From sequence record NC_047884.1: a stretch of DNA of 64,000 bases. One strand, written 5' to 3'. Within the stretch, counting starts at the first letter, position 1. The number at the start of each line of letters is the position of its first letter. Source of the DNA: Escherichia phage saus132. Below are positions 31,064-46,620 of this stretch, one piece after another. A program made the position numbers and the translations under genes. The notes below the pieces were generated by a model. The model had not been told where the DNA came from, ran no database searches, and was given only the letters and a program-made list of their open reading frames with translations.

Positions 31064-31153
31064 TGGCAGAAGATAATGGAGTCGAACCATCACCGTATCA
31101 CTACAGCGGGCCGGTTTTCAAGACCGGTTACGTACCACTACGTCCTATCTTCT
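31064..31153 (-). tRNA. tRNA-Ser (anticodon UGA), long variable arm
   Basis: 90 nt; anticodon arm CCGGT-CTTGAAA-ACCGG; about 19-nt variable arm; perfect acceptor. Confidence 0.65.
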
Positions 31154-31380: not shown

Positions 31381-31401
31381 TTATATTCCCTATTAGTTGT
31401 T

Positions 31402-31477
31402 TGGTGGAAGAAGAGAGATTCGAACTCTCAAGCCTGCTTTAACAAGTCAGCCACTTTCCAAGCGGTTTTCGTCACCT
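31402..31477 (-). tRNA. tRNA-like remnant (canonical 3' half, 5' half does not pair)
   Basis: CCA, acceptor 3' strand and T-arm GAGAG-TTCGAAT-CTCTC present; Asn-like loop TTGTTAA with weak stem; no complementary 5' acceptor strand. Confidence 0.3.
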
Positions 31478-31653
31478 AATCGATTTGCTCTTCCGTAGAT
31501 CTCAGGATTAAATCATAAACTTCATTAGCGGATACTGGAAGTATGAGATTATACATCTTTTGGTCATACCTCTGACCATACTCTATAAACACATACTCTT
31601 TAGTCAATGTATTAACAGCTAACCAGATATCAGTTATAGGAGTTTTCATCATG
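31476..31653 (-). CDS. hypothetical small protein (59 aa)
   Basis: ATG ORF overlapping the 5' side of the tRNA-like element. Confidence 0.3.
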
Positions 31654-31668
31654 AGTTAATCCAATGTT

Positions 31669-31749
31669 TGGTAGGGATGGAGGGACTCGAACCCACACCC
31701 GAAGACTAGAACCTAAATCTAGCGCGTCTGCCAATTTCGCCACATCCCC
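31669..31749 (-). tRNA. tRNA-Leu (anticodon UAG)
   Basis: anticodon arm CTAGA-TTTAGGT-TCTAG; 9-nt variable region; CCA encoded. Confidence 0.5.
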
Positions 31750-31756
31750 ATTTTAT

Positions 31757-31975
31757 TTAGTTAGAAATAAATAGTAACCCTGCAACAATGGAACCTATGC
31801 CACTGAATACCATTATCAGCATAGCTTCTAAGCTGATAAAGCGGACGTTATATGGAGCGCCCCAAGAATAATCAGTAAAGAAAGTTTTCTTTTCTTTAGC
31901 TAAATCTTTAATAGTTCTAAAATAGATAGCTAGTGCTAAAGCTGCAAGAACTACAGAGGCTGCTAAGAATACCAT
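31757..31975 (-). CDS. small membrane protein
   Basis: 72 aa, two TM segments. Confidence 0.45.
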   Translation of the reverse strand: MVFLAASVVLAALALAIYFRTIKDLAKEKKTFFTDYSWGAPYNVRFISLEAMLIMVFSGIGSIVAGLLFISN

Positions 31976-31994
31976 ATTATTTCCTTAATTTGTT

Positions 31995-32070
31995 TGGTGG
32001 AGTCACTCAGAATTGAACTGAGTTCCACTGCTTGCAAGGCAGTAAGTTTAACCAAATAACCTATGACCCC
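31995..32070 (-). tRNA. tRNA-Ala (anticodon UGC)
   Basis: G3-U70 wobble in acceptor (GGGGTCA/TGACTCC); anticodon arm ACTGC-CTTGCAA-GCAGT; CCA encoded. Confidence 0.65.
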
Positions 32071-32075
32071 GAATT

Positions 32076-32154
32076 TGGTGGAGAATAACGGAATCGAACC
32101 GTTCTGATGTCCTCGGTGCAAGCGAGGTGTCCACTCCATGCAGACCCATTCCCC
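32076..32154 (-). tRNA. tRNA-Ala (anticodon UGC), second divergent copy
   Basis: G3-U70 in acceptor (GGGGAAT/ATTCTCC); anticodon arm CCTCG-CTTGCAC-CGAGG; 7-nt variable loop. Confidence 0.55.
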
Positions 32155-32509
32155 AAAATCTTTAAGTTTACTAAGGCTATTAGCTCGGTGTGCGTATTAC
32201 CCTCAGACATTATCCAGTAGAGGATAACCGCTCTTCACAAACCCGATACACTATTCAGTTGCCGCTGAATCTAGTGGACTAATCTAGAACTTCTCCCGAG
32301 TCGTAGGGATCGTGCTTTTTGGCAGCCAGTCCTAGGTCGAGCTAATACCTTAGTGAACTAAATTGATGGATATCAGACTAATTTTGCTACGGCGTTTATC
32401 CTGAGGATCTCTTTTTCGGTAGCTCTGCTAGTGTAGACGTCATACACCTGATATCTAGGCAGCTATTTTCACATCAATTTATATAAATATTATAACAAGA
32501 AATTAAGCA

Positions 32510-32863
32510 TTAAGCAAGTACATTTTTAGCGATTTCTTGTAGTTCCTTAACGTCGCTAACGAAAAGGTAATCAGAGCTTCCAGAGTGCATACTCTGCATA
32601 ACCACACCACCATCCGGTGCATCTTCTTTCAAAGTAATACCTAACCAGAACTTGGCAAAACTAGGTGTTACCTCACCTTGACTTGCCTTGAACACATCGC
32701 CTTCTGTGATCTCTTGACCAGTGGAGAGTCCCATGTATGGTACGTTCAGATCAATATCTTTGTAGAACTCAGCTAGATCTTGCTCGAAATCCCAACCTTT
32801 AGAGATAGCGAACTCCATTGTTACATGACCGAAATAGCCTTGAACCTTGCTTGATAATTGCAT
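32510..32863 (-). CDS. hypothetical protein
   Basis: start moved to ATG after AAGGA RBS (track start is TTG). Confidence 0.5.
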   Translation of the reverse strand: MQLSSKVQGYFGHVTMEFAISKGWDFEQDLAEFYKDIDLNVPYMGLSTGQEITEGDVFKASQGEVTPSFAKFWLGITLKEDAPDGGVVMQSMHSGSSDYLFVSDVKELQEIAKNVLA

Positions 32864-32888
32864 TTGCAATTCCTTATTTTGAGTTAAT

Positions 32889-32962
32889 TGGTACTCGGTG
32901 ATAGAATCGAACTATCGCAACCGCCGTGTAAAGACGGGGTTCTCCCATTAAACTAACCGAGC
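32889..32962 (-). tRNA. tRNA-Val (anticodon UAC)
   Basis: T-arm GATAG-TTCGATT-CTATC; anticodon loop TTTACAC. Confidence 0.55.
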
Positions 32963-33095
32963 AAAAGACGTCCTATAATATAGGCTTCAACTACAAATTC
33001 ACAGAAACCTGCTAAAAACATACCTATTGTAAAATCGGCAGAGAATACATAGGAATCTTTTATTTTCTGCTTCATTAAGTAAAACCAGATAGTCA

Positions 33096-33413
33096 TTAAA
33101 ATCTCTCCATTCTAAAGCCAATGAAGTAAGGTGCATTACATGGAACATGCTTAAGATCTTTAAGAGTAATTTTACGTCCTAAGCGTCGTTCCATACAAGT
33201 GAAACATAGAACAATATCTTTGGGCTGCTCTTTTCTTATCTGATCCCAGACCCAATCTTCAACCATACACATTTCATGGTATTGTTCACAGTCTCGACAA
33301 TAGTGACACTGATGTTCTGGTACTTTTTGATTTTTAATACACAGTTCAGTAAAGCGTTTTCCGGCTCTGCCAGACATTTCTGATATTGTTTCTAGAACTT
33401 TGTTAATATTCAT
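33096..33413 (-). CDS. Cys-rich zinc-finger-like protein
   Basis: 105 aa; HQCHYCRDCEQYHEMC and CFTC motifs. Confidence 0.5.
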   Translation of the reverse strand: MNINKVLETISEMSGRAGKRFTELCIKNQKVPEHQCHYCRDCEQYHEMCMVEDWVWDQIRKEQPKDIVLCFTCMERRLGRKITLKDLKHVPCNAPYFIGFRMERF

Positions 33414-33430
33414 AACAAATTCCTTTAAAT

Positions 33431-33509
33431 TGGTAGACCGCCTGGGACTCGAACCCAGAACCTTCCGGTTAAAAGCCGGGTGCTGCTAAACCAATTGAGC
33501 TAGCGATCT
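33431..33509 (-). tRNA. tRNA-Lys (anticodon UUU)
   Basis: T-arm CTGGG-TTCGAGT-CCCAG; anticodon loop CTTTTAA. Confidence 0.55.
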
Positions 33510-33511
33510 AT

Positions 33512-33676
33512 TTAGTACATATATACTTCTTTAATAGAGTAGACTTTTAAGTAAGGATGATTAATACCAAATTCCGCCATCACTTCGTTTTCATCTTTAC
33601 CGTAATGGGCTAGTGGATACTTCTTACGATCTTTGCTAGAACGTAGATCACTTACTTTTAAGCGAAATAATTTCAT
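33512..33676 (-). CDS. hypothetical small protein (54 aa)
   Basis: ATG ORF between two tRNA genes. Confidence 0.3.
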   Translation of the reverse strand: MKLFRLKVSDLRSSKDRKKYPLAHYGKDENEVMAEFGINHPYLKVYSIKEVYMY

Positions 33677-33697
33677 TTCGAAATCCTTCTATTAAAT

Positions 33698-33775
33698 TGG
33701 AAGCGGGTGTAGGAATCGAACCTACCTCTTTCTAGCTTATGAGACTAGCGATCTCTACCAGAGATCTAACCCGCA
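33698..33775 (-). tRNA. tRNA-Met-type (anticodon CAU), mismatched 1-72 pair
   Basis: anticodon arm CTAGT-CTCATAA-GCTAG; T-loop TTCGATT; U1/U72 mismatch. Confidence 0.55.
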
Positions 33776-33781
33776 ATTGTT

Positions 33782-33859
33782 TGGTCTCCGTGGGAGGATT
33801 TGAACCCCCGACCCTACCGCCCCAAACGGAACGCTCTGGCCAAACTGAGCTACACGGAG
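33782..33859 (-). tRNA. tRNA-Pro (anticodon UGG)
   Basis: perfect acceptor CTCCGTG/CACGGAG; anticodon loop TTTGGGG; D-stem GCTC/GAGC. Confidence 0.6.
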
Positions 33860-34336
33860 AATATTATCTTTTTAACCATAGTAAGGTTATACCTAACATG
33901 GTAAATCCAGTACCCAGCCCAATACTTTTTTCTATGAAATTGAAGGTATCAGTATTGACTGCGGTAATTAGTATAGGTATAGACCATAGTACCATGAATA
34001 CTTGAGCTATCTTATATTTCACTTTGCTTTCCTTCTTAACATTTTATAAGATATATTATACAGAGAATTAAGCAAAGTAGCAAATGAATTTTTAATAAAT
34101 TTACTTATTGCGTAGGCCACCTGGAGGGTTCAAGCCCCACGGCTGACAAAGAAGTTTGCGAGACTTCTCTTAAACGCCAGAATAGACCCGCCGATCTATC
34201 GGAACCTACTCAATAAGTAAACTTTCATTTACTTACACCTACCTGGTCGGGAGGATTTTCAGCGACTAGAACCGGCCGGAAACTCATCGCCTTGTTTATC
34301 TAGGAGTCCGTTCTCTAGGAAGCAGAAACCTAAATT

Positions 34337-34410
34337 TGGTGCGGTCGGAGGGAATCGAACCCTCAACTTCTGGTTGGCAACCAAAAATTATACCTTTTAA
34401 CTACGAACGC
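34337..34410 (-). tRNA. tRNA-Gly (anticodon GCC)
   Basis: T-arm GAGGG-TTCGATT-CCCTC; anticodon arm TTTGG-TTGCCAA-CCAGA. Confidence 0.6.
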
Positions 34411-34608
34411 ATAATAAGTCAATCTAGGCAGGACTTGAACCTGCTATCACTTGTGCGGATTTACGAGAACCATTCTTTCACTCGAATCGAACGAGCTTCT
34501 ACCCTCGGCAAGCTGGTGTCCCCTCTCCACCACGCTAGAATGTTTGATAAAGAGTCCGGTGTAGCAATCCGTAAGGGTGCACCTACTGTAGCCTTTACTC
34601 TTTAAATT

Positions 34609-34684
34609 TGGTACACCCACTAGGACTTGAACCTAGAACCCTCCGCTTAAGAGGCGGTAGCTCTAACCATTGAGCTATGGATGT
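34609..34684 (-). tRNA. tRNA-Lys (anticodon CUU)
   Basis: T-arm CTAGG-TTCAAGT-CCTAG; anticodon loop CTCTTAA; D-stem GCTC/GAGC. Confidence 0.55.
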
Positions 34685-34690
34685 ATTATT

Positions 34691-34767
34691 TGGCGCGACC
34701 GATGGGATTCGAACCCACATTCTCTCCCGTGACAGGGGAGTACCATTACCAAGCCAGCCCCGATCGC
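34691..34767 (-). tRNA. tRNA-Asp (anticodon GUC)
   Basis: anticodon arm CTCCC-CTGTCAC-GGGAG; discriminator G; CCA encoded. Confidence 0.6.
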
Positions 34768-34776
34768 ATAATTTGT

Positions 34777-34962
34777 TTACTCAGCTTTGAGTTTTTCGAT
34801 AGCTTCCTCAACCTCTTTTAGAGCTTCACGACGTGCATTCTGTTGCTGCATATCTTGAATTAATGTCAGTTTTTGGTTTTCAATTTCTTGATCCCAAACC
34901 TTAATATTATTAATCAGACTATCACGATCAGCTTCTAGTCGAGCAATTGCACGAGTTGTCAT
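34777..34962 (-). CDS. hypothetical coiled-coil protein
   Basis: 61-aa ORF. Confidence 0.4.
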   Translation of the reverse strand: MTTRAIARLEADRDSLINNIKVWDQEIENQKLTLIQDMQQQNARREALKEVEEAIEKLKAE

Positions 34963-35065
34963 ATCTATTTCCTCAGTTGTTAATGAAAAATGGTATCTGT
35001 GACTGAATTCGATATCAGCAATGATAGCTGGTTGGCTACCGGTTTACTTAACTCTACACAGAATT

Positions 35066-35143
35066 TGGCGGTTCCTGCTGGATTCGAACCAGCAACCCTC
35101 AACTTAACAAGATGCCGCTCTAACCAATTAGAGCTAAGGAACC
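35066..35143 (-). tRNA. tRNA-Asn (anticodon GUU), weak anticodon stem
   Basis: perfect acceptor GGTTCCT/AGGAACC; T-arm GCTGG-TTCGAAT-CCAGC; loop TTGTTAA; two stem mismatches. Confidence 0.5.
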
Positions 35144-35638
35144 ATATAAGTCAGAACTAGAGTTAATACGTTCTAGATATTTACTAAGATCCCTAGAATT
35201 TATACTAAACCACTCATGTTCTTTTAAGTCTTTGAAATATTGGTGAATTTGTTTTTCACCTTTTCGTTTGTCAAACCAAAACGACCAATGCTCTAGTTTA
35301 TAGTCCCTATAAGGACTATAAGTTTGATACTGAGCTAATCTCTCTTTTGGATTTTGACTCATACCTATTTTATACTGGTTTTTCCATGCAGGATTACTGA
35401 TACAGTATACAAAACCTTCAGAAATAGGAAGCTTATTTTCCTGTTTAAACTTTATAAAGGAAAGTGCGGCAAGTTTCCTCGAATACAGAGTATTTGTATT
35501 CTTTTTGGTATTACCACTGGTTCCTGAAAGATTTATATACTCTTCCATAAATCTTTGGATTAGTTCTGTGGTTATGTAGAAAGGCTCATTAGTAACAATG
35601 CCTTTCTCTACCAAGCTGTCAAAAACTTTTGTATGCAC
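35120..35638 (-). CDS. T5orf172/GIY-YIG-like domain protein
   Basis: 172 aa; GFVYCISNP...YKIGMSQNPKERLAQY resembles the T5orf172 core. Confidence 0.5.
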   Translation of the reverse strand: MHTKVFDSLVEKGIVTNEPFYITTELIQRFMEEYINLSGTSGNTKKNTNTLYSRKLAALSFIKFKQENKLPISEGFVYCISNPAWKNQYKIGMSQNPKERLAQYQTYSPYRDYKLEHWSFWFDKRKGEKQIHQYFKDLKEHEWFSINSRDLSKYLERINSSSDLYGSLALIG

Positions 35639-35659
35639 TACTTCTTTCCTTTAGTAATT

Positions 35660-35734
35660 TGGAGCATCCTGTTGGAATTGAACCAACCTAGACGATTTTG
35701 CAGACCGTCACCTAAGCCACTCGGACAAGGATGC
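35660..35734 (-). tRNA. tRNA-Cys (anticodon GCA)
   Basis: perfect acceptor GCATCCT/AGGATGC; anticodon loop CTGCAAA; T-loop TTCAATT. Confidence 0.65.
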
Positions 35735-35737
35735 AAA

Positions 35738-36010
35738 TTAATCTACTTCACACATATCATCATAGCCACAAGTTGGGCATTCCCAATGACATTCGTCATG
35801 CTCACCGCATTGAGCACATTCATAAATCTTTGGCTTTTCAACTTCTTCTAGATTAATAAATTCTAGATCATCGAAGTTACCAATGGATCTGGCATAGTAA
35901 CCATCGCCTGCGTCATAACCTGATTTACCACACTCACACATCTTAAACTCACGCAGATGTGTGAAGATATGTTCAGAGCCACAACACTTAAATTTAACTA
36001 ACTTTTTCAT
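35738..36010 (-). CDS. zinc-ribbon protein
   Basis: 90 aa; several CxxC pairs. Confidence 0.5.
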   Translation of the reverse strand: MKKLVKFKCCGSEHIFTHLREFKMCECGKSGYDAGDGYYARSIGNFDDLEFINLEEVEKPKIYECAQCGEHDECHWECPTCGYDDMCEVD

Positions 36011-36059
36011 TTGCTTCTCCAGTTCAATTTATGTAATAATTATACAGAACTTTAAGCGG

Positions 36060-36347
36060 TTAAGCAACTACATTTTTCAGAAATATGATGCCTTTCTTTT
36101 TCTTCTTATACTTCCACGTTAACGGGTTCTGTCGATTATGAACGCTTGAGATCTTTGTCTCGTCAAAGTTCTTCAATACCATGTAATCACAGGCCAACTG
36201 TTCTAGTGGAATGTGATCTCCGTCAAAAGCGTAAACGTAAGGCTGTTGACTGGCACGATAATGATAGACTTTGTTAATTCTGCGTTTCAGTGACTTATCC
36301 GCACAGTAAATAAAGAAGTTTTCAGGATGCATCAGCATCTCCTTCAA
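36060..36347 (-). CDS. hypothetical protein
   Basis: 95-aa ORF; track start is TTG, a likelier ATG lies 9 nt in. Confidence 0.45.
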   Translation of the reverse strand: MKEMLMHPENFFIYCADKSLKRRINKVYHYRASQQPYVYAFDGDHIPLEQLACDYMVLKNFDETKISSVHNRQNPLTWKYKKKKKGIIFLKNVVA

Positions 36348-36349
36348 AT

Positions 36350-36424
36350 TGGTGCACCCTGTTCGAATTGAACGAACCTCTCAAGCTCTTCAGGCAAGCG
36401 CTAATCCATCTCAGCTAAAGGTGC
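36350..36424 (-). tRNA. tRNA-Phe (anticodon GAA), anticodon stem with two U-U mismatches
   Basis: T-arm GTTCG-TTCAATT-CGAAC; loop CTGAAGA; CCA encoded. Confidence 0.45.
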
Positions 36425-36430
36425 AAATAT

Positions 36431-36507
36431 TGGCAAACCTACTAGGACTCGAACCTAGACCGTACGGTTTTGGAGACCGACATGCTGTCCAGTAACACTC
36501 TAGGAAT
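36431..36507 (-). tRNA. tRNA-Trp (anticodon CCA)
   Basis: T-arm CTAGG-TTCGAGT-CCTAG; anticodon arm TCGGT-CTCCAAA-ACCGT; two U-U mismatches in acceptor. Confidence 0.5.
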
Positions 36508-36515
36508 GCAGAAAT

Positions 36516-36592
36516 TGGCGTCCTGTGCGGGGATCGAACCCGCAAATCCTACCTTGAAAGGGTAGTGACTTTACCAGTTTGTCTAACAGGAC
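36516..36592 (-). tRNA. tRNA-Glu (anticodon UUC)
   Basis: perfect acceptor; T-arm GCGGG-TTCGATC-CCCGC; anticodon arm CTACC-CTTTCAA-GGTAG. Confidence 0.65.
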
Positions 36593-36599
36593 TTAAATT

Positions 36600-36690
36600 T
36601 GGTGTTGGATGATGGAGTCGAACCACCCGAGACCCTTCCGAGTCGGCAGATTTACAGTCTACTTCGCTACCTCTACGATACTAATCCAAC
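36600..36690 (-). tRNA. tRNA-Tyr (anticodon GUA), long variable arm
   Basis: 91 nt; perfect acceptor GTTGGAT/ATCCAAC; anticodon loop CTGTAAA; about 18-nt variable arm. Confidence 0.6.
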
Positions 36691-36879
36691 ATATTTGAAT
36701 GAAAAGTAAGTCGGTTAAACTCAAGGTGGAATATTTCAGGATTTCCTGACTTTACCCCTAAAAGCAACTCGCTTAATTACTTCTCATTCAGATATGTTTC
36801 CAAATTAGATAAATATTATATCAAGTTTTAAGGCACTGAGCAAGTCAAATTTTAAAGAACTTGCTCAGTGCTGTATCAG

Positions 36880-37173
36880 TTAATCAAATGAAGGAGTGAC
36901 TTTCAAAGTGAATGGAAGTTCGAATACCTCTTCACCTTCATCAGTAACAGTGACTACTCGACCCTCTAGCTTATTCATGCTGATTTCAACATCAGCCGTA
37001 GCATCAGGAGCCATACCAGCCTCAATACATTGAGCTTTGATCTCTGGAAGAAGTTCTACATTGTAGAAATAAAGCCACTCGATCTCACCTTCCCAACCAC
37101 CCCAGGATTTACATACTGAGCTTTCAATACCAGTTGCTGCAAAACGTTTTAACATTCTGATTCCTCTCATCAA
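36880..37173 (-). CDS. hypothetical protein
   Basis: 97-aa ORF. Confidence 0.45.
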   Translation of the reverse strand: MMRGIRMLKRFAATGIESSVCKSWGGWEGEIEWLYFYNVELLPEIKAQCIEAGMAPDATADVEISMNKLEGRVVTVTDEGEEVFELPFTLKVTPSFD

Positions 37174-37244
37174 CTTATATAACTATTATAGCAGAAATCT
37201 TAAGCAAAAAGCAAGTACATTTTTAAAATTTCTGCTTGGAGGAG

Positions 37245-37517
37245 TTAAACTCCTGATTCTTCAGCCAGATCAAGCCCAACCAATGTGATTGCCATAATAG
37301 CCGCGCCATGTTCTTTCTCTCCTAGCTCTTTGGCTTGAGTGAGAATATTGAGGAATTGCTTTTGAAAATCTGCAACTTCTTCTGTCATGCCTGCTTCAGC
37401 AATAATTCCTTTCAGCATAAAGCGTTGTGCCGTAATTTCAGGATTAGCCATTTGTTTTCTCCAGTTATTTAGAATGTAAGCCAAACTTAGGATCATAGCG
37501 ATCGTAAGTAGTACCAT
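37245..37517 (-). CDS. hypothetical protein
   Basis: 90-aa ORF. Confidence 0.45.
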   Translation of the reverse strand: MVLLTIAMILSLAYILNNWRKQMANPEITAQRFMLKGIIAEAGMTEEVADFQKQFLNILTQAKELGEKEHGAAIMAITLVGLDLAEESGV

Positions 37518-37602
37518 TAGTTGAAGCCTTGATGCTATGAAAACGACAATACATAAATTTACGCAGTGCTTTCTTAATAGCTTTCATTTTATTTCCTTAA
37601 TT

Positions 37603-37679
37603 TGGTAGGGGTGGTGGGATTCGAACCCACAAAACCTGAATTTTAAGTCCAGTACCTATGCCAATTCGATTACACCCCC
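37603..37679 (-). tRNA. tRNA-Leu (anticodon UAA), short variable loop
   Basis: T-arm GTGGG-TTCGAAT-CCCAC; anticodon loop CTTAAAA; 77 nt. Confidence 0.45.
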
Positions 37680-37687
37680 ATGTAATC

Positions 37688-38041
37688 TTAGCGAATCTCT
37701 AAACCCTGGAAATATCGAGGGAATGGAGAGCCAACTTCAAAATTGATGCCCCAGTTAAGTTCAACGAGTTCAGATTTATTAAGATCTAGGCCATTACCTT
37801 CAAAGATATAGCCGTAAACCGCAGGGAACATAGCTGCTAGATCTTCCATATCGGAATGAGCATTGTGTTCTTCACGTAACTGCTCAAACTCTTCAAAGAA
37901 CTTTTCTAGGAAGAACTCAGGTACGATGAACGTTACCACATCAGTAGAATCATCAGTACGATACACCGTAGCTTGGAACAAGCCAACACCTAAAAGGTTT
38001 ATTGCCGGAGTAGTAAAAATATCCATCTTAACCTCGCTCAA
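37688..38041 (-). CDS. hypothetical protein
   Basis: 117-aa ORF. Confidence 0.5.
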   Translation of the reverse strand: MSEVKMDIFTTPAINLLGVGLFQATVYRTDDSTDVVTFIVPEFFLEKFFEEFEQLREEHNAHSDMEDLAAMFPAVYGYIFEGNGLDLNKSELVELNWGINFEVGSPFPRYFQGLEIR

Positions 38042-38213
38042 TGTCTAGAGAAATACCACATTCAGGATTAATACCAGAACCATTACAATATGTACAAACG
38101 TATGTATTATACCGTGTATCACCGGGTTCAGCATCGTTCCACTCACCTACTCCGAAGCATTTTGGGCAGGCACACTCTTCTAGCTCTTGCTTGAGTTCTT
38201 GAAATTTGGACAT
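38028..38213 (-). CDS. small zinc-finger protein
   Basis: 61 aa; CPKCFGVGEW and CTYCNGSG motifs. Confidence 0.4.
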   Translation of the reverse strand: MSKFQELKQELEECACPKCFGVGEWNDAEPGDTRYNTYVCTYCNGSGINPECGISLDIERG

Positions 38214-38221
38214 ATAGTCTC

Positions 38222-38410
38222 CTAGTTAATTACTTTTGAGGCTTCTAAAGCATTGACGTAGTAAACGTCTTCTACTTTATACATATAGTCTACTACTTTG
38301 TCCATAGCATGTAGTTCAGATGTAGCCTTTACTAGTCTGTACCCTTGTTTAAACTCGTCCGAATGTTCTCTATCTTGTGCAAATTTAACAGAAACTATGA
38401 ATAATTCCAT
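38222..38410 (-). CDS. hypothetical small protein
   Basis: 62-aa ORF. Confidence 0.4.
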   Translation of the reverse strand: MELFIVSVKFAQDREHSDEFKQGYRLVKATSELHAMDKVVDYMYKVEDVYYVNALEASKVIN

Positions 38411-38429
38411 TAGTTGTCCTTATTTAATT

Positions 38430-38507
38430 TGGTGGCTCCCGGAGGATTCGAACCTACCTACCTTTCGCTTATGAGGCGACGGCTCATACCAAATGAGCTT
38501 GAGAACC
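38430..38507 (-). tRNA. tRNA-Met-type (anticodon CAU), third CAU copy
   Basis: T-loop TTCGAAT; anticodon arm GTCGC-CTCATAA-GCGAA; CCA encoded. Confidence 0.5.
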
Positions 38508-38512
38508 AAATT

Positions 38513-38606
38513 TGGAGGAAGATGCCAGATTCGAACTGGCACACCGTGTCTCCACAGCTACTGGCTGTTTAGCAAACAGCTCCCTTACCTTTAGGGTTAA
38601 TCTTCC
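38513..38606 (-). tRNA. tRNA-Ser (anticodon GCU), long variable arm
   Basis: 94 nt; perfect acceptor GGAAGAT/ATCTTCC; anticodon arm GCTGT-TTGCTAA-ACAGC. Confidence 0.6.
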
Positions 38607-38626
38607 AAATTTATGAATATATTATA

Positions 38627-39028
38627 TTAGAAATTTAGCTTCATGGCAAGAAAATTTTTCAAGTTTTCTGTATTCATTTCATCTAAATCCATGAGGGAAG
38701 TAAACCCATTTAGTTTTTTAGCAAAATTCTCACCAGCAGAATCATTATCGCCTACGGCTACTACTTTAAAAGGTTGTAATTTTAGCTGCTTTAGCAATGC
38801 TTTGCTAGGGGAAGATCCTAGCATTGCTAGTGCGGGATATCCCGCGTTGTGTAGTGCCACAGCTTTAAATACAGATTCTGCAACTAATACTAGGTCTTCA
38901 TTACCTGTAAGAGTTTCTAAACCCCATAGACATTGAGTAGAAGAATGCGTAAAATATTTAGCTTCAGAAGGACATTTTCCATGACCTTTAGCTGCACTAG
39001 GGTTATATGTTTGATATCCACGTAACAT
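38627..39028 (-). CDS. Toprim-like small protein (possibly N-terminally disrupted)
   Basis: 133 aa; VVAVGDNDSAG acidic motif; short out-of-frame ATG ORF directly upstream. Confidence 0.35.
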   Translation of the reverse strand: MLRGYQTYNPSAAKGHGKCPSEAKYFTHSSTQCLWGLETLTGNEDLVLVAESVFKAVALHNAGYPALAMLGSSPSKALLKQLKLQPFKVVAVGDNDSAGENFAKKLNGFTSLMDLDEMNTENLKNFLAMKLNF

Positions 39029-39213
39029 GCCAGAGAAATCATACAGTGGAACTGTTAACCATCCATGTGGAGAGAGCCAACAGTGATACTTATCACTATC
39101 AAAGCCCCTAGATTAAAGATGTTGTTTTAACTCGTCAACAGTCATATATGACTCCTATCTATAATTTATAGAATATATTATATAGAAAATTTCGGCATTA
39201 AGCAAGTGAAATT

Positions 39214-39510
39214 TTACTGAACACTGCACTGATACACTTGTTTGATACGTGTCACTGACTTCTTAGTTGGATTGATAGAAGAACCTTGCCACCAACGTGA
39301 TTCTGAGCTGAGAACAGCACCAGGAACAGCTTGTTCTTTTGGCAGAACAATATCAAAACATTGCTCACCCATATTATCTTTAATGTGTGACCAAATATCC
39401 AAAGTAAATCGTTCTAGCTTATTACAAACTTGAACTTGACAAAGTTCCTGTTGTGGAGCAGCAAATACAGAAGTAGATACTAGAGTCAATGCAAGTACAA
39501 TGCGTTTCAT
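39214..39510 (-). CDS. secreted protein with signal peptide
   Basis: start set at ATG after GAGAGG RBS; MKRIVLALTLVSTSVFAAPQ signal sequence. Confidence 0.5.
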   Translation of the reverse strand: MKRIVLALTLVSTSVFAAPQQELCQVQVCNKLERFTLDIWSHIKDNMGEQCFDIVLPKEQAVPGAVLSSESRWWQGSSINPTKKSVTRIKQVYQCSVQ

Positions 39511-39540
39511 ATTTGATTCCTCTCTCAAATTTATAAATAT

Positions 39541-39569
39541 ATTATACAGAAATTTTCTATATTAAGCAA
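39541..39569 (-). promoter_or_regulatory. T5-type early promoter
   Basis: TATAAT 39541-39546, TTGCTT 39564-39569, 17-bp spacer, conserved leader. Confidence 0.6.
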
Positions 39570-39616
39570 GTGAAAATTTCTGTATAATAGCCCTCTAAGC
39601 GAGGGCTATAACTACT

Positions 39617-40309
39617 TTATTTGTTAACGCGTACAAAGTATCCTTTATAGGCTCCCATAATAGAGTTACCTAAGAATACTAGCCACATTGCTAGGATTGC
39701 ATAAGATGCACCTGTAGATTGAGCAGTTACAAGCCAAATGTATACAGTACCAATGTTAATAGCAATCCAGATCAGCCATTGTTCAGCATATTGTTTGACC
39801 ATAAGCCACATAGCAATCACACTACCAACCGCAGTAAATGCGTCAAGCATTGGGAATGGATCAGCGGTAGTAGCAAGGAAGCTGCCGTAACCTAAAGTAG
39901 CTACTGCTAGAATCCCTAGAGTCAGCAGAGCTTGGGCTTTAGTCAGAACCTTAGTTGGAACATCTGGCAGATTACTTGGCTTATTTTTATGCCATAAGTA
40001 CATTCCATAAAACTGCATAGGAACGTAGTATAGCAGGTTTAGTGCAGCGTTACCATAAAGATCTGCGTTTAAAGCTGTAATACCATATGTAAGAACACCC
40101 ACTAAGCCCCAAATATAGTTGGAAACACGTCCTTTTGCAACCAGAATAACACAAACCACATTGGTTATTGCAGTAGCCCAATCTAGAGCTGTACCATTAT
40201 AGTTTGCTAAACTAATGAAGACAACCGCTATGAACAGCCACAGATATTCCAGAGGTTTCCAGTTTTTAAAGTCATTTACGAGATAGTTAGTCATATTAAA
40301 ACTCTCCAA
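39617..40309 (-). CDS. pnuC: nicotinamide riboside transporter PnuC-like
   Basis: 230 aa polytopic membrane protein; SNYIWGLVGVLTYG and WHKN region resemble PnuC. Confidence 0.6.
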   Translation of the reverse strand: MESFNMTNYLVNDFKNWKPLEYLWLFIAVVFISLANYNGTALDWATAITNVVCVILVAKGRVSNYIWGLVGVLTYGITALNADLYGNAALNLLYYVPMQFYGMYLWHKNKPSNLPDVPTKVLTKAQALLTLGILAVATLGYGSFLATTADPFPMLDAFTAVGSVIAMWLMVKQYAEQWLIWIAINIGTVYIWLVTAQSTGASYAILAMWLVFLGNSIMGAYKGYFVRVNK

Positions 40310-41351
40310 CGTTAAAGTGATGAATCAGCCAGTCTACTGCGTTTACTGCTTCGTCCATACGAACTTTGTAGTCCGGGGAGTCGATGTAAACAGTACGCCC
40401 TTCAGGGAACTGATTTGGAAATTCTTTCTTCATCTGCTCGAACAGTTCAGAAGTAATTGAACGATCGGAGTTAATACGTAAACCATCATCTACCCACTTG
40501 ACAGTAGGCGCTAGAACAATTACTAAATCGTAATGTTCTTCTTTTGCAATTGCTGTAACCACAGGGTTCTTACTATGTTCATAAAGTCTGTGGTAGAACT
40601 CAGTAATAAAAGCATTTGTATCCACAAACATGATCTTATTTGCAGTACGTTCTGCTTCAAACTCTAGCTCTTTGTGTCTGAACGCAATTTTACTATAGTC
40701 TTCGCTGGTAAGCAGATTTTCGTTACCAACTAGATCAACTTCACAATACGTTCGGCCATATTCTTCTACCCACGAAGTGTTGTATAGCTTCGCAAGGTAT
40801 TTTGTTAAAGTAGTCTTTCCTGAGCTTTCAGTCCCAATGATTACAACCTTACGCACGTAATCTTTACGAACTACGCTAGGAAGAAACTCCCAATACTTCA
40901 TAAGATCATTACGAATCATTGTAGCTGAGATTGGAACACGAGTCCGATCAGAATCTACAATATAATGACCAAACTTCGGCAGATATTTCTTATATTCTGC
41001 ATCATAGTCTAGTTCGCTAGAGAAAATGGTGATCTCAGGCAAATGTCCGTAATTTTCATTAAGGATTCTAGCATATTCCGGCCAACCATTCGGATATTCA
41101 GGAATATCATCTTCAATAGTGTACTCTACCGAAATGTGCTCAATATCCGCGTAAGTTTGTTCTAACCAACGAAGTCGATTCTTTAACTGTAATACTTCCT
41201 GATCACGTGTGTTCTGCTTATCCAACCAACGATTATCATGACTAACTACAACAATAACTCGTTCACACATAGTTGCTGCTGTGTTTATTAGGTTAATATG
41301 ACCACGCGTTAATGGTGCGAACTTACCAATTACTAGACCAGTCTTAATCAT
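40296..41351 (-). CDS. nadR: NadR-like bifunctional NMN adenylyltransferase / ribosylnicotinamide kinase
   Basis: nucleotidyltransferase motif GKFAPLTRGH; Walker A GTESSGKTTL in C-terminal half; start set at ATG after GAGAGG RBS. Confidence 0.65.
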   Translation of the reverse strand: MIKTGLVIGKFAPLTRGHINLINTAATMCERVIVVVSHDNRWLDKQNTRDQEVLQLKNRLRWLEQTYADIEHISVEYTIEDDIPEYPNGWPEYARILNENYGHLPEITIFSSELDYDAEYKKYLPKFGHYIVDSDRTRVPISATMIRNDLMKYWEFLPSVVRKDYVRKVVIIGTESSGKTTLTKYLAKLYNTSWVEEYGRTYCEVDLVGNENLLTSEDYSKIAFRHKELEFEAERTANKIMFVDTNAFITEFYHRLYEHSKNPVVTAIAKEEHYDLVIVLAPTVKWVDDGLRINSDRSITSELFEQMKKEFPNQFPEGRTVYIDSPDYKVRMDEAVNAVDWLIHHFNVGEF

Positions 41352-41381
41352 ATTTGATTCCTCTCTCAAATTTATAAATAT

Positions 41382-41410
41382 ATTATACAGAGAATTTAGC
41401 ATTCAAGCAA
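41382..41410 (-). promoter_or_regulatory. T5-type early promoter
   Basis: TATAAT 41382-41387, TTGCTT 41405-41410, 17-bp spacer. Confidence 0.6.
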
Positions 41411-41623
41411 TCGAATTTTTTAACTTTTTAGTGGAAAAAATCTCAAGGCATTTAGTGGTAGCACGTTGTTGCTACAATAATAGTATATGATTCTAAAGAA
41501 TTAAAGAATTAAATACTAAAGACCTTAGTTGAATAACTTATGGGCTTTTCTTTTGCCTTAAATACAGAAAAGCCCGCGCTCTCGGAGGAAACGCGGGCTT
41601 ATTTCGAAGATTACGTGTAACTA

Positions 41624-42568
41624 TTACTTATTACGCATATCCATAATCATCTGGCCATCATAACCAGTACCTACAACAGTCTGAGGAACGCCACCCTGAT
41701 ATTTTTCAGCGCGTTTCATATCAACTTCCAGCTGTTTCCAGCGAATCATCTCTGGAGTGATGGTACGCTGCAGAGCGGTGTTAGCTTCAGCTTCTTTCTT
41801 AGCCGCATACAGTTTAGCATCTGCGTCACGTTCGTTAGCTACTGCCATATTTTCACGAGCAGAACGATCAGCCTCAGCTTGCTTAACTTTCTGCTGTGCT
41901 TCTTGTTCAACACGAGCTAGTTCAGCTTTTGCAGCGTTAACTTGTTCTTCACGAACTTTGGTGTTTTGTACCTGTTCCATGATTACCGGTGGCAGAGTAA
42001 TATCCTGAAGGAATACTTGCTTAACGGTGTAGCCATAAGGACGCGCATACTCTTCTACTTCTTGCTGAATAGCGGTTTGCAGTTGAGCCTGAATCTTAGC
42101 GTCGAACAGATCTTGTGCTTTTGGTACAGACTTACCAAACTCACGAATCGTAGACAGCATCTTCTCTTCAACGTACTTGTTCAGAGCTTGATCCTGAGTA
42201 CCTGCGTTAACACGGTTCATAGGAGCTTTAGCACCATCAAACTGCAACATAACGGTAATGTCAACTGTAGACTTAAACTTATCCTGGCTAGGAACCTGAA
42301 GTTTATCCAGTTTCATAGAAATATCTTTCGTACTAAAAGTATCAAAAGAGGCGAATGGGTTGACAATATGGAACCCCGGCAATACAGGATTAGGACTAAC
42401 TTTACCCAGGAAAGTCTGAGTTTTAACCGTACCGTCCTGAACAACTGTATAGGAATTGAGAGCCAGAATAAGAGCGCCAAGACCAACTACAGCACCAACA
42501 CCCCAACGTTTAATAGTACGAATTACTTTTTGATCGGAAGTCAGTTCTTTAGTGTTTTTAGTAAACAT
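41624..42568 (-). CDS. SPFH/band-7 (prohibitin/HflC-like) membrane protein
   Basis: 314 aa; N-terminal TM; FLQDITLPPVIMEQV motif and long coiled coil. Confidence 0.55.
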   Translation of the reverse strand: MFTKNTKELTSDQKVIRTIKRWGVGAVVGLGALILALNSYTVVQDGTVKTQTFLGKVSPNPVLPGFHIVNPFASFDTFSTKDISMKLDKLQVPSQDKFKSTVDITVMLQFDGAKAPMNRVNAGTQDQALNKYVEEKMLSTIREFGKSVPKAQDLFDAKIQAQLQTAIQQEVEEYARPYGYTVKQVFLQDITLPPVIMEQVQNTKVREEQVNAAKAELARVEQEAQQKVKQAEADRSARENMAVANERDADAKLYAAKKEAEANTALQRTITPEMIRWKQLEVDMKRAEKYQGGVPQTVVGTGYDGQMIMDMRNK

Positions 42569-42579
42569 ATATTTCCTTA

Positions 42580-42780
42580 TTATTTAGAAGAGTTAGCTAC
42601 TACAGTTACTTTAGTTGCAGAAATAAACAGGCTAGCATCCACAGCAAATTCAGGAGCTTTGATATCTCCGTTATGAAATATGACTATACCGGAGACTACT
42701 TCAAATGCTAGCGCTGTAACATCGGTGGTATTTACTTGTGAATGTTCACCTACTACTTTTACTATATATCGTGTTTTCAC
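42580..42780 (-). CDS. hypothetical small protein
   Basis: 66 aa, GTG start with AGGAAA RBS, downstream of SPFH gene. Confidence 0.4.
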   Translation of the reverse strand: MKTRYIVKVVGEHSQVNTTDVTALAFEVVSGIVIFHNGDIKAPEFAVDASLFISATKVTVVANSSK

Positions 42781-42806
42781 TTTATTTTCCTAGCAGTTAA
42801 TAAAAT

Positions 42807-42881
42807 TGGCCGAGGTGACAGGATTCGAACCTGCATAAAGGAATTTAGAAGACTCCTGCCTATCCCTTAGACTACACCCCG
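42807..42881 (-). tRNA. tRNA-Arg (anticodon UCU)
   Basis: T-arm GCAGG-TTCGAAT-CCTGT; anticodon arm GGAGT-CTTCTAA-ATTCC; CCA encoded. Confidence 0.6.
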
Positions 42882-43777
42882 TTTAGGTATTTTTAAGAAC
42901 TCTTATAAAAGCTCTTAAAGATACCCGACGGTAGGTAGGGTCAGCCCCCTCAGATTAAGCTCTGCAGCCCTTCCGTCAGACAATATCTTCCAGTTTAAGT
43001 CAGGGTGACTTTGTGGTTATGTTCTCCGTATGTGAAGAACTCGGTTAGGCTTAGGTCATGACTCCCAGCCTACTGCTGCCGCTCAACAGGAATTATCGCG
43101 AATTACCTGTACTATTGGGCACCATTAGTGACATCTCTCATGTCAGCGTTTCCCACTCTCATATTCACGCGGTCTGTTAGAATCGCACCTCCGATTTTCG
43201 ATGCGAAGCTGGATGCCTAGTCTCAGGTTAAACGGGGCACACACTAGGCAGTGATCCCGAGTTCCGAGTTTGGTTGAGGCCGTCAGGTTTCCTCGTGGTT
43301 TAGCTGTTTCGATTCTAACCTAATACTGATCAGGTGGCGTACCTCCTGAACTGTCATAGTATGTACTCCAGCAGCGAATGCTTATCCGGTATAAGCCCGA
43401 GTTATCTGATTCTTTCCGACCGCAGGATTCGAACCTGCATCTTCCACCAGTTACGGTTTGATATTACCGTTTATACTAGGACGGCAGTGTTATCACATAA
43501 GTCAGTTCGACACCCCACTAACATAAACTAGAGAAGAGTTTACGAGATTTCGGGACAGCTCCCGAGTTTTCCGCAGATTTTCAGTTCCCTATCAATAGCA
43601 ATAAGCGTTAGCTCGTAGCCTCTCTCAGAGTACTTACTAGTCTCCAACTCACCGACTCTATTCAGTGGAATAGCTATCCTAGTAGGAATCACTAAACTCA
43701 CTCAGCGTAATCGGCTCGCTGTTCTCTAATTTATGAATCTATTATACAGAATTTTGAGGCGTTTAGCAAATCAATTT

Positions 43778-44221
43778 TTAATTAAATTCGCCAGCAACCT
43801 GAGCAGCAATGCCACCGTCGTAACGACCAGGAAACTCTTCCTTAATCGCTTTCATCAGCATACCTTTTGTAATCCCAGGGTTCAACTTAACTAATTCTGC
43901 AAAGTATTTGCGAATCTCAGAATCAGATAACTGAGGCGGCAGATACTGTTGTAGCCATTTGTTCAGTATATACTCATACTGAGCAGACTGCAAGCTATAA
44001 TTATCAAGGTCTTGACCGTGAAGTTTAGCTTTCGTCTGATTAATGCTTTTCAGTTGAGCTTTTAGATAAGATACAAACTGTTCAGAAGTAATGAAGTCTT
44101 TATCAACACGCTGAAGATCTCCGATTATGGTCTGGTAGCTTTTAGCTACTTCTTTATCAGAACCATCAACCTTAGATTCCTGCAAAGCCCTACGCAAAAC
44201 ATCTAGAATATTCTCTTCCAT
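43778..44221 (-). CDS. GatB/YqeY-domain-like protein
   Basis: 147 aa; C-terminal MKAIKEEFPGRYDGGIAAQV resembles YqeY tail. Confidence 0.4.
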   Translation of the reverse strand: MEENILDVLRRALQESKVDGSDKEVAKSYQTIIGDLQRVDKDFITSEQFVSYLKAQLKSINQTKAKLHGQDLDNYSLQSAQYEYILNKWLQQYLPPQLSDSEIRKYFAELVKLNPGITKGMLMKAIKEEFPGRYDGGIAAQVAGEFN

Positions 44222-46550: not shown

Positions 46551-46620
46551 AATTATTTTCCTTTTGTTGTTCTCTCAAATTTATGAATATATTATACAGA
46601 ATTTTGGAGCTGAAAGCAAA

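What the first reader, a model, noticed from the sequence alone, without database searches (positions are those of the whole stretch)
39617..41351. Phage-encoded NAD+ salvage pair (PnuC-like transporter plus NadR-like NMNAT/NR kinase)
Adjacent co-transcribed genes encode a PnuC-like transporter and a NadR-like enzyme with both the (H/T)xGH adenylyltransferase motif and a Walker A kinase domain. Rebuilding NAD+ from nicotinamide riboside would counter NAD+-depleting immunity (Thoeris, Sir2/TIR effectors) or feed an NAD+-consuming phage enzyme.
Basis: partly seen in the sequence, partly recalled or inferred. Interest (0 to 1): 0.7.

Follow-up and report, generated by a model that had tools for sequence, protein, structure and literature searches.

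The report
Known phage NAD+ salvage pair (NARP3)
These two genes of a T5-like phage import nicotinamide riboside and turn it into NAD+, and they are almost letter-for-letter the "NARP3" counter-defence pair published with structures and assays in August 2026, so the finding is correct but not new.

Summary
Window 39617-40294(-) encodes a 225-aa PnuC-family transporter. Window 40296-41351(-) encodes a 351-aa NadR-like NMN adenylyltransferase / ribosylnicotinamide kinase without the regulatory HTH domain. The genes are 1 nt apart, behind one consensus-like promoter, between an upstream terminator and a downstream hairpin. The window is bases 1-64000 of bacteriophage T5-like chee130_1 (MF431736.1, Epseptimavirus), where both genes are already annotated. 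The transporter is 225/225 identical to Bas30_87. The enzyme is 350/351 identical to Bas30_86 (PDB 9X6F/9X6H). That pair is the "NARP3" system of Yan et al., Sci Adv 2026 (PMC13464706). There it imports NR, makes NR->NMN->NAD+, and rescues phages T7 and lambda from Sir2-HerA and DSR1 in an NR-dependent way. All 20 residues named in that paper are conserved here. Still open: NARP3 has never been tested in its native phage. T5 proper carries the same NAD+ consumers (Sir2, NAD+-ligase) without the pair, so the pair is accessory. One possibly new item: the next gene (39214-39510) encodes a conserved secreted protein that sits beside nadR/pnuC in three unrelated phage lineages but is unlinked in at least eight other contexts.

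The parts
41570..41600 (-). Intrinsic terminator ending the upstream SPFH/Band_7 gene, which isolates the nadR-pnuC unit from upstream transcription
   Evidence: 12-bp stem with 7 GC pairs followed by a T-run. Conserved in Bas30 apart from one loop base.
41382..41410 (-). Sigma-70-type promoter: TTGCTT (41410-41405), 17-nt spacer, TATAAT (41387-41382)
   Evidence: Read directly from the sequence. The scan tool calls an overlapping variant. Base-for-base identical in Bas30.
41352..41381 (-). 5' leader with ribosome-binding site (ATAAATTTGAGAGAGGAATCAAAT). It is part of a 41-nt exact repeat also found upstream of the next transcription unit.
   Evidence: Exact repeat at 41349-41389 and 39508-39548, with 0 expected by chance. 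Looser copies of the leader motif lie at 18827-18843 and 46568-46584.
40296..41351 (-). NadR-like bifunctional enzyme (351 aa): N-terminal NMN adenylyltransferase plus C-terminal ribosylnicotinamide kinase, with no HTH domain. Orthologue of Bas30_86.
   Evidence: family assignments; 9X6F/9X6H at E=8e-241; H. influenzae NadR 1LW7 at E=2e-54; 350/351 identical to Bas30_86 (T78 versus I78); all 17 published functional residues conserved.
39617..40294 (-). PnuC-family nicotinamide riboside transporter (225 aa). Orthologue of Bas30_87.
   Evidence: family assignments. N. mucosa PnuC 4QTN at E=1e-32; 225/225 identical to Bas30_87. N45, Q94 and N180 present; multiple hydrophobic segments; 21 synonymous and 0 nonsynonymous codon differences versus Bas30.
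39587..39609 (-). 9-bp stem-loop (ATAGCCCTC-GCTTA-GAGGGCTAT) 8 nt after the pnuC stop. Likely transcript end or stabiliser, but the U-tract is weak.
   Evidence: Read from the sequence. Not called by the terminator scan because the T-run is short. Identical in Bas30.
39214..39569 (-). Possibly associated neighbour: its own TTGCTT-17-TATAAT promoter (39569-39541), a duplicate leader, and a gene (39214-39510) for a 98-aa secreted protein with four invariant cysteines. Function unknown; membership in the module is unproven.
   Evidence: promoter and duplicate leader. PHROG 6894 of unknown function. No Pfam, NCBIfam or PDB sequence match. Linked to nadR/pnuC in three phage lineages and unlinked in others.

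Best explanation
This is a NARP3 module, an early-expressed two-gene operon of a T5-like (Epseptimavirus) phage. The PnuC-like membrane protein lets nicotinamide riboside (NR) from the medium or periplasm into the infected cell. The HTH-less NadR-like enzyme traps NR by ATP-dependent phosphorylation to NMN in its kinase domain. It then adenylylates NMN with ATP to NAD+ in its NMNAT domain.

The enzyme lacks the repressor domain and is driven by a strong phage promoter. The pathway is therefore probably free of the host's NAD+ homeostatic control, and can refill the NAD+ pool when Sir2-, TIR- or SEFIR-type defence effectors cleave it, so that phage replication proceeds.

Shown in the literature for 100%/99.7% identical proteins: NR binding, both enzymatic steps, NAD+ restoration, NR-dependent rescue of T7 and lambda from Sir2-HerA, and rescue from DSR1. 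Shown here: identity, conserved residues and operon anatomy. Inferred: early expression, freedom from host regulation, and that the same benefit applies to this phage in its natural hosts.
For: - Family assignment above the curated cutoffs.
- 225/225 identity to Bas30_87 and 350/351 identity to Bas30_86. The enzyme matches PDB 9X6F/9X6H at E=8e-241.
- All residues whose mutation abolished function in PMC13464706 are present. These are K10, F11, S37, E80, P84, G89, F110, S112, D115, V139, I141, E230 and D275 in the enzyme, and N45, Q94 and N180 in the transporter. The modelled NR/NMN-site residues K163, D164, R167 and K168 are also present.
- The HTH is absent: the alignment to the NadR model NF005988 starts at profile position 54 of 411.
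- The promoter, leader, 1-nt gene junction and downstream hairpin are identical to Bas30.
- Strong purifying selection versus Bas30: 37 synonymous against 1 nonsynonymous codon change across the two genes.
- Published biochemistry and counter-defence assays.
- The pair is accessory. 441 phage records match part of the 3.7-kb region but only 208 carry the pair. T5 proper has other genes at the site.
Against: - No experiment exists on this phage or on any native NARP3-carrying phage. The authors acknowledge this.
- Rescue requires exogenous NR at low-micromolar levels, with EC50 of 3.6-5.6 uM. Availability of NR in natural settings is unknown.
- The hosts (E. coli, Salmonella) already have PnuC and NadR, so the size of the added benefit in a real infection is inferred.
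- Thoeris and other NADase systems were not tested.
- The T78/I78 difference lies two residues from E80 and has not been tested. T78 aligns with a leucine in H. influenzae NadR, so the position seems tolerant.
Confidence: 0.87

Rival explanations
1. General metabolic booster rather than counter-defence. The pair raises NAD+ to supply the phage's own NAD+ consumers (split LigA/LigB NAD+-dependent DNA ligase, SIR2-family protein) or host redox metabolism during a large burst, whether or not any defence system is present. This is not mutually exclusive with the best explanation.
For: The phage encodes a SIR2-family protein in the window (61037-61888, PF02146 E=1e-21). It also encodes an NAD+-dependent ligase in two pieces just outside the window (PF01653 and PF03120, then BRCT). 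The pair has an early-type strong promoter. Expression carries little cost.
Against: T5 proper has the same consumers (T5.102 Sir2, T5.116/117 ligA/ligB) but no nadR-pnuC at the syntenic site. Only 36 Escherichia-named phage records have any NadR homologue, against 128 that match part of the region. The consumers therefore do not need the pair. The published phenotype appears specifically under NADase defence.
Confidence: 0.25
2. Three-component module. The downstream 98-aa secreted protein (39214-39510) works with the pair in the periplasm, for example by increasing the NR supply or acting on the transporter. On this reading NARP3 is really a three-gene system in some phages.
For: The small gene has an exact 41-nt copy of the nadR promoter and leader. 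It lies within 0.7 kb of nadR or pnuC in three unrelated lineages with three different gene orders:
- T5-like phages: nadR-pnuC-small.
- ~355-371-kb jumbo phages of Erwinia and Xanthomonas: small-(x)-nadR-pnuC.
- ~142-148-kb Mydovirus-like phages: small-x-nadR-...-pnuC.
Only about 1.6% of phage records have a NadR homologue at all (790 of 50,697). The protein is 47-67% identical across these lineages, with 17 invariant positions. The NARP3 paper does not mention it.
Against: It is unlinked to NadR/PnuC within 4-8 kb in at least eight other contexts. These are Aeromonas T4-like phages, Pseudomonas OBP, K64-1-like jumbo phages, pSal-SNUABM-01-like phages, several metagenomic contigs and one bacterial-looking contig. 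The two-gene operon alone sufficed for full rescue in E. coli. An ~80-aa mature protein is unlikely to be an enzyme. The leader motif is a class feature seen at four sites in the window. No fold or family match gives a functional hint.
Confidence: 0.15
3. Transcriptional regulator, as the GenBank product name 'NadR transcriptional regulator' implies. On this reading the protein would repress host NAD+ biosynthesis genes.
For: Only the deposited product name.
Against: The N-terminal HTH domain that defines the regulatory function of enterobacterial NadR is absent. The alignment to NF005988 starts at profile position 54, and the protein begins directly with the GKFxPxxxGH nucleotidyltransferase motif. 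The paper describes Bas30_86 as a truncated NadR lacking the HTH.
Confidence: 0.02

Closest known systems
NARP3 (Bas30_86/Bas30_87 of Escherichia phage TrudiRoth, MZ501109; Yan et al., Sci Adv 2026, PMC13464706; PDB 9X6H, 9X6F)
   Same: Same genus (Epseptimavirus), same syntenic position, same gene order and lengths, and the same 1-nt junction. The promoter, leader and downstream hairpin are identical. The transporter is 100% identical and the enzyme 99.7% identical. All functionally tested residues are conserved.
   Different: One amino-acid difference (T78 here, I78 in Bas30_86) and 40 nucleotide differences in the two genes, almost all silent. The phage was isolated from cheese rather than sewage. 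No experiment has been done on this isolate.
Bacterial PnuC-NadR nicotinamide riboside salvage (H. influenzae NadR 1LW7; N. mucosa PnuC 4QTN; E. coli/Salmonella NadR)
   Same: Same two protein families and the same chemistry: facilitated NR entry, then metabolic trapping by the kinase, then adenylylation. Matches: E=2e-54 to 1LW7 and E=1e-32 to 4QTN.
   Different: The phage enzyme lacks the HTH repressor domain of enterobacterial NadR. The phage genes are fused into one operon behind a phage promoter, whereas E. coli pnuC and nadR are at separate loci. Identity to the cellular proteins is low; the alignments show many substitutions.
NARP2 (phage Nampt/NadV + NMNAT) and the KVP40 NadV/NatV pathway
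   Same: Phage-encoded salvage ending in NMN adenylylation to NAD+. Same proposed purpose of countering NAD+ depletion.
   Different: NARP2 starts from intracellular nicotinamide plus PRPP and needs no transporter. Here the entry point is imported NR, phosphorylated by a kinase domain, and no Nampt is part of the unit.
NARP1 (Adps + Namat)
   Same: A two-gene phage operon that rebuilds NAD+ under NADase attack.
   Different: The chemistry is entirely different (ADPR -> ADPR-PP -> NAD+, using the cleavage products themselves). The protein families are unrelated, and there is no dependence on an external precursor.

Membership tests
NARP3 (phage NadR-like + PnuC-like NAD+ reconstitution pathway) | Adjacent, co-oriented nadR-like then pnuC-like genes forming one unit in a phage genome | tested here: met
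   40296-41351(-) then 39617-40294(-), with a 1-nt gap, one promoter, and flanking terminator and hairpin. The genome is a Demerecviridae phage.
NARP3 (phage NadR-like + PnuC-like NAD+ reconstitution pathway) | NadR-like enzyme truncated at the N terminus (no HTH), retaining the NMNAT and RNK domains | tested here: met
   The NF005988 alignment covers profile positions 54-407 of 411. CTP_transf_like and AAA_28 domains are both present.
NARP3 (phage NadR-like + PnuC-like NAD+ reconstitution pathway) | Enzyme residues shown by mutation to be required (K10, F11, S37, E80, P84, G89, F110, S112, D115, V139, I141, E230, D275), plus the modelled NR/NMN-site residues K163, D164, R167 and K168 | tested here: met
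   All 17 are identical at the same numbering. The residue list is from PMC13464706.
NARP3 (phage NadR-like + PnuC-like NAD+ reconstitution pathway) | Transporter NR-binding residues N45, Q94 and N180 | tested here: met
   All three are present. The protein is 225/225 identical to Bas30_87.
NARP3 (phage NadR-like + PnuC-like NAD+ reconstitution pathway) | Restores NAD+ and rescues phage replication from NAD+-depleting defence in an NR-dependent way | not testable with these tools
   Shown for the 100%/99.7% identical Bas30 proteins expressed from plasmids. Not tested in any native phage.
NadR family (bacterial NadR, NF005988 / TIGR01526) | NMNAT domain with the (H/T)xGH and ISxTxxR signatures | tested here: met
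   TRGH at 15-18 and ISATMIR at 141-147. NF005988 scores 258.9 bits, above the 201 cutoff.
NadR family (bacterial NadR, NF005988 / TIGR01526) | C-terminal P-loop ribosylnicotinamide kinase domain | tested here: met
   Walker A GTESSGKT at 173-180. AAA_28 E=1e-31.
NadR family (bacterial NadR, NF005988 / TIGR01526) | N-terminal HTH DNA-binding (repressor) domain of the trifunctional enterobacterial protein | tested here: not met
   No residues align to profile positions 1-53. The GenBank product name 'NadR transcriptional regulator' is therefore misleading.
NadR family (bacterial NadR, NF005988 / TIGR01526) | Score above the TIGR01526 equivalog-domain cutoff | tested here: not met
   270.1 bits against a cutoff of 341.15. 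This is a diverged phage branch of the family.
PnuC family (PF04973 / TIGR01528) | Full-length match above the curated cutoffs | tested here: met
   PF04973 scores 148.2 bits against 27.3. TIGR01528 scores 121.2 bits against 42.45. 4QTN matches at E=1e-32 over residues 9-215.
PnuC family (PF04973 / TIGR01528) | Polytopic inner-membrane protein | tested here: met
   A crude Kyte-Doolittle scan finds hydrophobic segments spanning residues 11-79 and 115-216. This is consistent with the multi-helix PnuC fold, but the helix count was not resolved.
NARP2 | Nampt (NadV) partner that makes NMN from nicotinamide and PRPP | tested here: not met
   The partner gene in this unit is a transporter, not a phosphoribosyltransferase. 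The rest of the genome was not searched for NadV.

The most novel reading that the evidence does not exclude
The most novel reading not excluded is that the small secreted four-cysteine protein encoded next to the pair (39214-39510) is a third, periplasmic component of the pathway. It has the same promoter and leader as nadR, and it sits beside nadR/pnuC in T5-like, jumbo and Mydovirus-like phages. It could, for example, raise local NR availability or act on the transporter. On this reading, the published 'two-gene' NARP3 description would be incomplete for natural infections at limiting NR.
Probability: 0.15. Interest if true: 0.5.

Novelty: already known. Interest (0 to 1): 0.2.

Why it matters
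NAD+ depletion is one of the commonest bacterial anti-phage strategies, and phage pathways that rebuild NAD+ help decide which phages can infect which strains. This locus is a bona fide copy of the third such pathway (NARP3). It sits in a food-borne T5-like phage that belongs to a group used in biocontrol and phage therapy.

The finding adds no new principle. The idea was proposed in 2022 and 2024 and demonstrated in 2026. What is still worth doing is the native-phage knockout that the published study could not perform. This isolate, or any of about 200 sister phages, could be used for it. The recurrent small secreted neighbour should also be tested.

Tried and rejected
- **SPFH/Band_7 as partner.** I tested whether the upstream SPFH/Band_7 gene (41624-42568) is part of the unit or is the real partner of the small secreted protein. 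It is separated from nadR by a strong terminator. It is near the small gene only in T5-like phages and one metagenomic contig. Rejected.
- **A mistake, corrected.** I first concluded that the Klebsiella Mydovirus locus L008 lacks NadR/PnuC, relying on its deposited annotation. tblastn showed both genes are there and the annotation is wrong.
- **A tool misreading.** I thought the sandbox lacked loci L003 and later. They were bundled in multi-record files.
- **Non-coding RNA.** Rfam found only tRNAs in 38900-43900.
- **Shared leader as a specific link.** The shared leader between nadR and the small gene is only weak evidence of a specific link. The leader motif also occurs at two other sites, with 2 mismatches each. 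From memory, it resembles the classic T5 early promoter/leader class.
- **Transcriptional-regulator reading.** Rejected, because the HTH domain is absent.
Full report
**What is at the coordinates**

The minus strand carries two ORFs exactly where the finding places them. The window matches bacteriophage T5-like chee130_1 (MF431736.1; Demerecviridae, Markadamsvirinae, Epseptimavirus) at 100% identity and at the same coordinates. In that record the two ORFs are annotated as P1301_0075 'PnuC-like ribosyl nicotinamide transporter' (39617-40294) and P1301_0076 'NadR transcriptional regulator' (40296-41351). The finding's coordinates are therefore those of the deposited CDSs.

**Family assignment**

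The 225-aa protein matches the following:
- Pfam NMN_transporter PF04973: E=3e-43, 148 bits against a cutoff of 27.3.
- NCBIfam TIGR01528 PnuC: 121 bits against a cutoff of 42.45.
- PHROG 1880.
- The solved Neisseria mucosa PnuC, 4QTN: E=1e-32.

The 351-aa protein has an N-terminal cytidylyltransferase-like domain and a C-terminal AAA_28 P-loop domain.
- It scores 258.9 bits against the NadR model NF005988 (cutoff 201). The alignment starts at profile position 54, so the HTH repressor domain is missing.
- It falls below the TIGR01526 equivalog cutoff, 270 against 341.
- It matches H. influenzae NadR 1LW7 at E=2e-54.

**Operon anatomy (read from the sequence)**
- A 12-bp terminator at 41600-41570 closes the upstream SPFH/Band_7 gene.
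- A TTGCTT-17-TATAAT promoter lies at 41410-41382, followed by a leader with a GAGAGAGGAA ribosome-binding site and the nadR ATG at 41351.
- The nadR stop and the pnuC ATG are 1 nt apart, with a GGAGAG site inside the end of nadR.
- A 9-bp stem-loop at 39609-39587 follows pnuC.
- The mechanically longest ORF starts (41402 and 40309) are not the real ones, because 41402 lies upstream of the -10 element.

Co-transcription is thus well supported by the sequence, but it has not been measured.

**It is the published NARP3 system**

[quoted passage not shown] It defines NARP3 as the two-gene cassette Bas30_86 (HTH-less NadR-like enzyme) and Bas30_87 (PnuC-like NR transporter) of Escherichia phage TrudiRoth. 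The paper reports:
- Bas30_87 is a trimer that binds NR with a Kd of about 0.66 uM. N45A, Q94A and N180A abolish binding and function.
- Bas30_86 converts NR to NMN to NAD+ in vitro.
- Crystal structures 9X6H and 9X6F place NAD+ in the NMNAT pocket. Mutations in either domain abolish NAD+ restoration.
- The operon restores NAD+/NADH depleted 7- to 17-fold by Sir2-HerA. It raises plating of T7 and lambda by 10^3-10^4-fold, and it also counters DSR1.
- Rescue depends on exogenous NR, with EC50 values of 3.6-5.6 uM.

I fetched TrudiRoth (MZ501109, also an Epseptimavirus) and compared it directly:
- The window's transporter is 225/225 identical to Bas30_87.
- The enzyme is 350/351 identical to Bas30_86, with T78 in place of I78.
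- All 17 enzyme residues and all 3 transporter residues named in the paper are conserved at the same numbering.
- The promoter, leader, gene junction and hairpin are base-for-base identical.
- The two genes differ at 40 nucleotides: 37 codons with synonymous changes and 1 with a nonsynonymous change.

**Priority of the idea**

Iyer et al. 2022 (PMC9503650) listed phage NadR among enzymes that reconstitute NAD+ against NADase effectors. Osterman et al. 2024 (bioRxiv 10.1101/2024.02.11.579819) explicitly hypothesised that the phage NadR+PnuC operon is a further NAD+ reconstitution pathway.

**Distribution**

- The two-gene unit is found at 80% or higher nucleotide identity in 208 of 50,697 phage records, mostly Salmonella and Escherichia T5-like phages.
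- NadR-like proteins occur in 790 records across many lineages, including Vibrio ICP1, jumbo phages, and Bacillus, Enterococcus and Lactobacillus phages.
- The pair is accessory within T5-like phages. 441 records match part of the 3.7-kb region, but only about half carry the pair.
- T5 proper has three unrelated opposite-strand genes (T5.077-079, no Pfam domains) between the Toprim gene and the SPFH gene.

**Rival: feeding phage NAD+ consumers**

This phage encodes a SIR2-family protein inside the window (61037-61888, PF02146 E=1e-21). It also encodes a split NAD+-dependent DNA ligase just outside the window. T5 proper has the same consumers (T5.102, T5.116/117) without the pair at this site. 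The consumers are therefore core genes and the salvage pair is an optional addition. That fits a conditional benefit, such as defence evasion, better than an obligatory supply role. The two roles are not exclusive.

**What remains open**

The authors state that NARP3 was not examined in its native phage, and Thoeris was not tested. The benefit over the host's own PnuC and NadR in a real infection is inferred. The authors attribute it to the loss of the regulatory HTH domain and to operon coupling.

**A side observation beyond the paper**

The next gene downstream (39214-39510) encodes a 98-aa protein with a signal peptide (MKRIVLALTLVSTSVFA/AP) and four cysteines. It has its own TTGCTT-17-TATAAT promoter and an exact 41-nt copy of the nadR promoter and leader. 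Looser copies of the leader motif lie at 18827-18843 and 46568-46584.

The protein family:
- It has 75 clusters of about 92-123 aa with no Pfam domain and no informative name.
- It is 47-67% identical across very different phages, with 17 invariant positions including all four cysteines.
- An AlphaFold2 model from a 37-sequence alignment (pLDDT 74.6) shows four long strands and a helix.

By tblastn and gene-context look-ups, the small gene lies within 0.7 kb of nadR or pnuC in three unrelated lineages, with three different gene orders:
- T5-like phages: nadR-pnuC-small.
- ~355-371-kb jumbo phages of Erwinia and Xanthomonas: small-(x)-nadR-pnuC.
- ~142-148-kb Mydovirus-like phages: small-x-nadR-...-pnuC.

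It is unlinked within 4-8 kb in Aeromonas T4-like phages, Pseudomonas OBP, K64-1-like and pSal-SNUABM-01-like phages, several metagenomic contigs and one bacterial-looking contig.

The NARP3 paper does not mention this gene or the periplasm, and the two genes alone sufficed for rescue. I rate a functional third component at about 15%. It is more likely a frequently co-travelling early accessory gene.

**Verdict**

This is a near-identical copy of an experimentally and structurally characterised system, in a genome where both genes were already annotated. Novelty: already known. Interest is low (0.2). The residual value lies in the untested native-phage phenotype and in the small secreted neighbour.

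Noticed in passing
window 39214-39569 (-): A 98-aa secreted protein with four invariant cysteines (PHROG 6894, no known family or fold match). Its promoter and leader are an exact 41-nt duplicate of the nadR promoter and leader. It recurs next to nadR/pnuC in T5-like, jumbo (Erwinia, Xanthomonas) and Mydovirus-like phages, but is unlinked in at least eight other contexts.
   Followed up: yes
window 61037-61888 (+); L005 23943-24914 and 25117-25896 (MF431736.1 69942-71895): The phage encodes its own NAD+ consumers: a SIR2-family protein (PF02146 E=1e-21) and an NAD+-dependent DNA ligase split into two genes (adenylation + OB, then HhH/BRCT). T5 proper has both as well (T5.102, T5.116/117).
   Followed up: partly
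window 39029-41623 versus L004 3799-5791 (T5 NC_005859 37798-39790): Variable accessory site. Between the Toprim gene and the SPFH gene, T5 proper carries three opposite-strand genes (T5.077-079; 321, 138 and 64 aa; no Pfam domains) with their own promoter and a bidirectional terminator. Epseptimaviruses carry nadR-pnuC-small at this site instead. The function of T5.077-079 is unknown.
   Followed up: partly
window 18827-18843, 39518-39534, 41359-41375, 46568-46584 (all -): The leader motif ATAAATTTGAGAGAGGA occurs four times (two exact copies, two with 2 mismatches) against 0.04 expected by chance. From memory it resembles the leader of the classic strong T5 early promoters (PN25 type), which suggests these genes share an early, highly expressed class.
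   Followed up: partly
window 42882-43777 (-), especially 43414-43485: A ~900-bp stretch with no annotated gene, positionally equivalent to T5 'rnaX' (a stable RNA of unknown function, annotated next to tRNA-Arg in T5). Rfam finds a borderline tRNA-like match there (29.3 bits against a gathering score of 29) that ARAGORN did not call.
   Followed up: no
window 29041-42881 (-): An array of 28 tRNA genes on the minus strand, interspersed with small ORFs. The NARP3 unit sits inside the distal end of this tRNA region, with tRNA-Ser and tRNA-Met at 38430-38606 and tRNA-Arg at 42807-42881.
   Followed up: no
window 38627-39028 (-): A 133-aa Toprim-only ORF (PF13155 E=2e-7; PHROG 849 'DNA primase', matching only profile positions 195-337 of 435). 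It is annotated as hypothetical here and as 'DNA primase' (T5.076, 172 aa) in T5. It looks like a stand-alone Toprim fragment rather than a full primase.
   Followed up: no
L007 1-532 and L032 1784-2710: In the Erwinia and Xanthomonas jumbo phages, an ADP-ribosylglycohydrolase gene (PF03747) lies about 3.3-3.5 kb upstream of the small-nadR-pnuC cluster. This hints at a broader NAD+/ADP-ribose gene neighbourhood in those genomes.
   Followed up: no
L008 (OY978796.1 41467-49769); L012 (PQ002171.1): Public-record problems. In Klebsiella phage K45PH128C2, the CDS annotated over the start of the NadR region (4360-5607, labelled 'tRNA nucleotidyltransferase') is flagged as a pseudogene and contains 18 in-frame stops when translated. 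tblastn nevertheless finds intact NadR at 4584-5654 and PnuC at 7518-8210 (92-95% identical to those of SEW_6S). Salmonella phage SEW_6S is filed under Demerecviridae although these genes are 92-95% identical to those of this Mydovirus (Vequintavirinae). The product name 'NadR transcriptional regulator' in MF431736.1 is also misleading, because the HTH is absent.
   Followed up: partly
window 41624-42568 (-); L034 3918-5234: An SPFH/Band_7 membrane protein (PF01145 E=8e-20; variously annotated as 'lipoprotein' or 'modulator of FtsH protease') lies immediately upstream of the NARP3 unit but is separated from it by a strong terminator. A Band_7 gene also lies 0.8 kb upstream of the small secreted-protein gene in one unrelated 101-kb contig.
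   Followed up: partly
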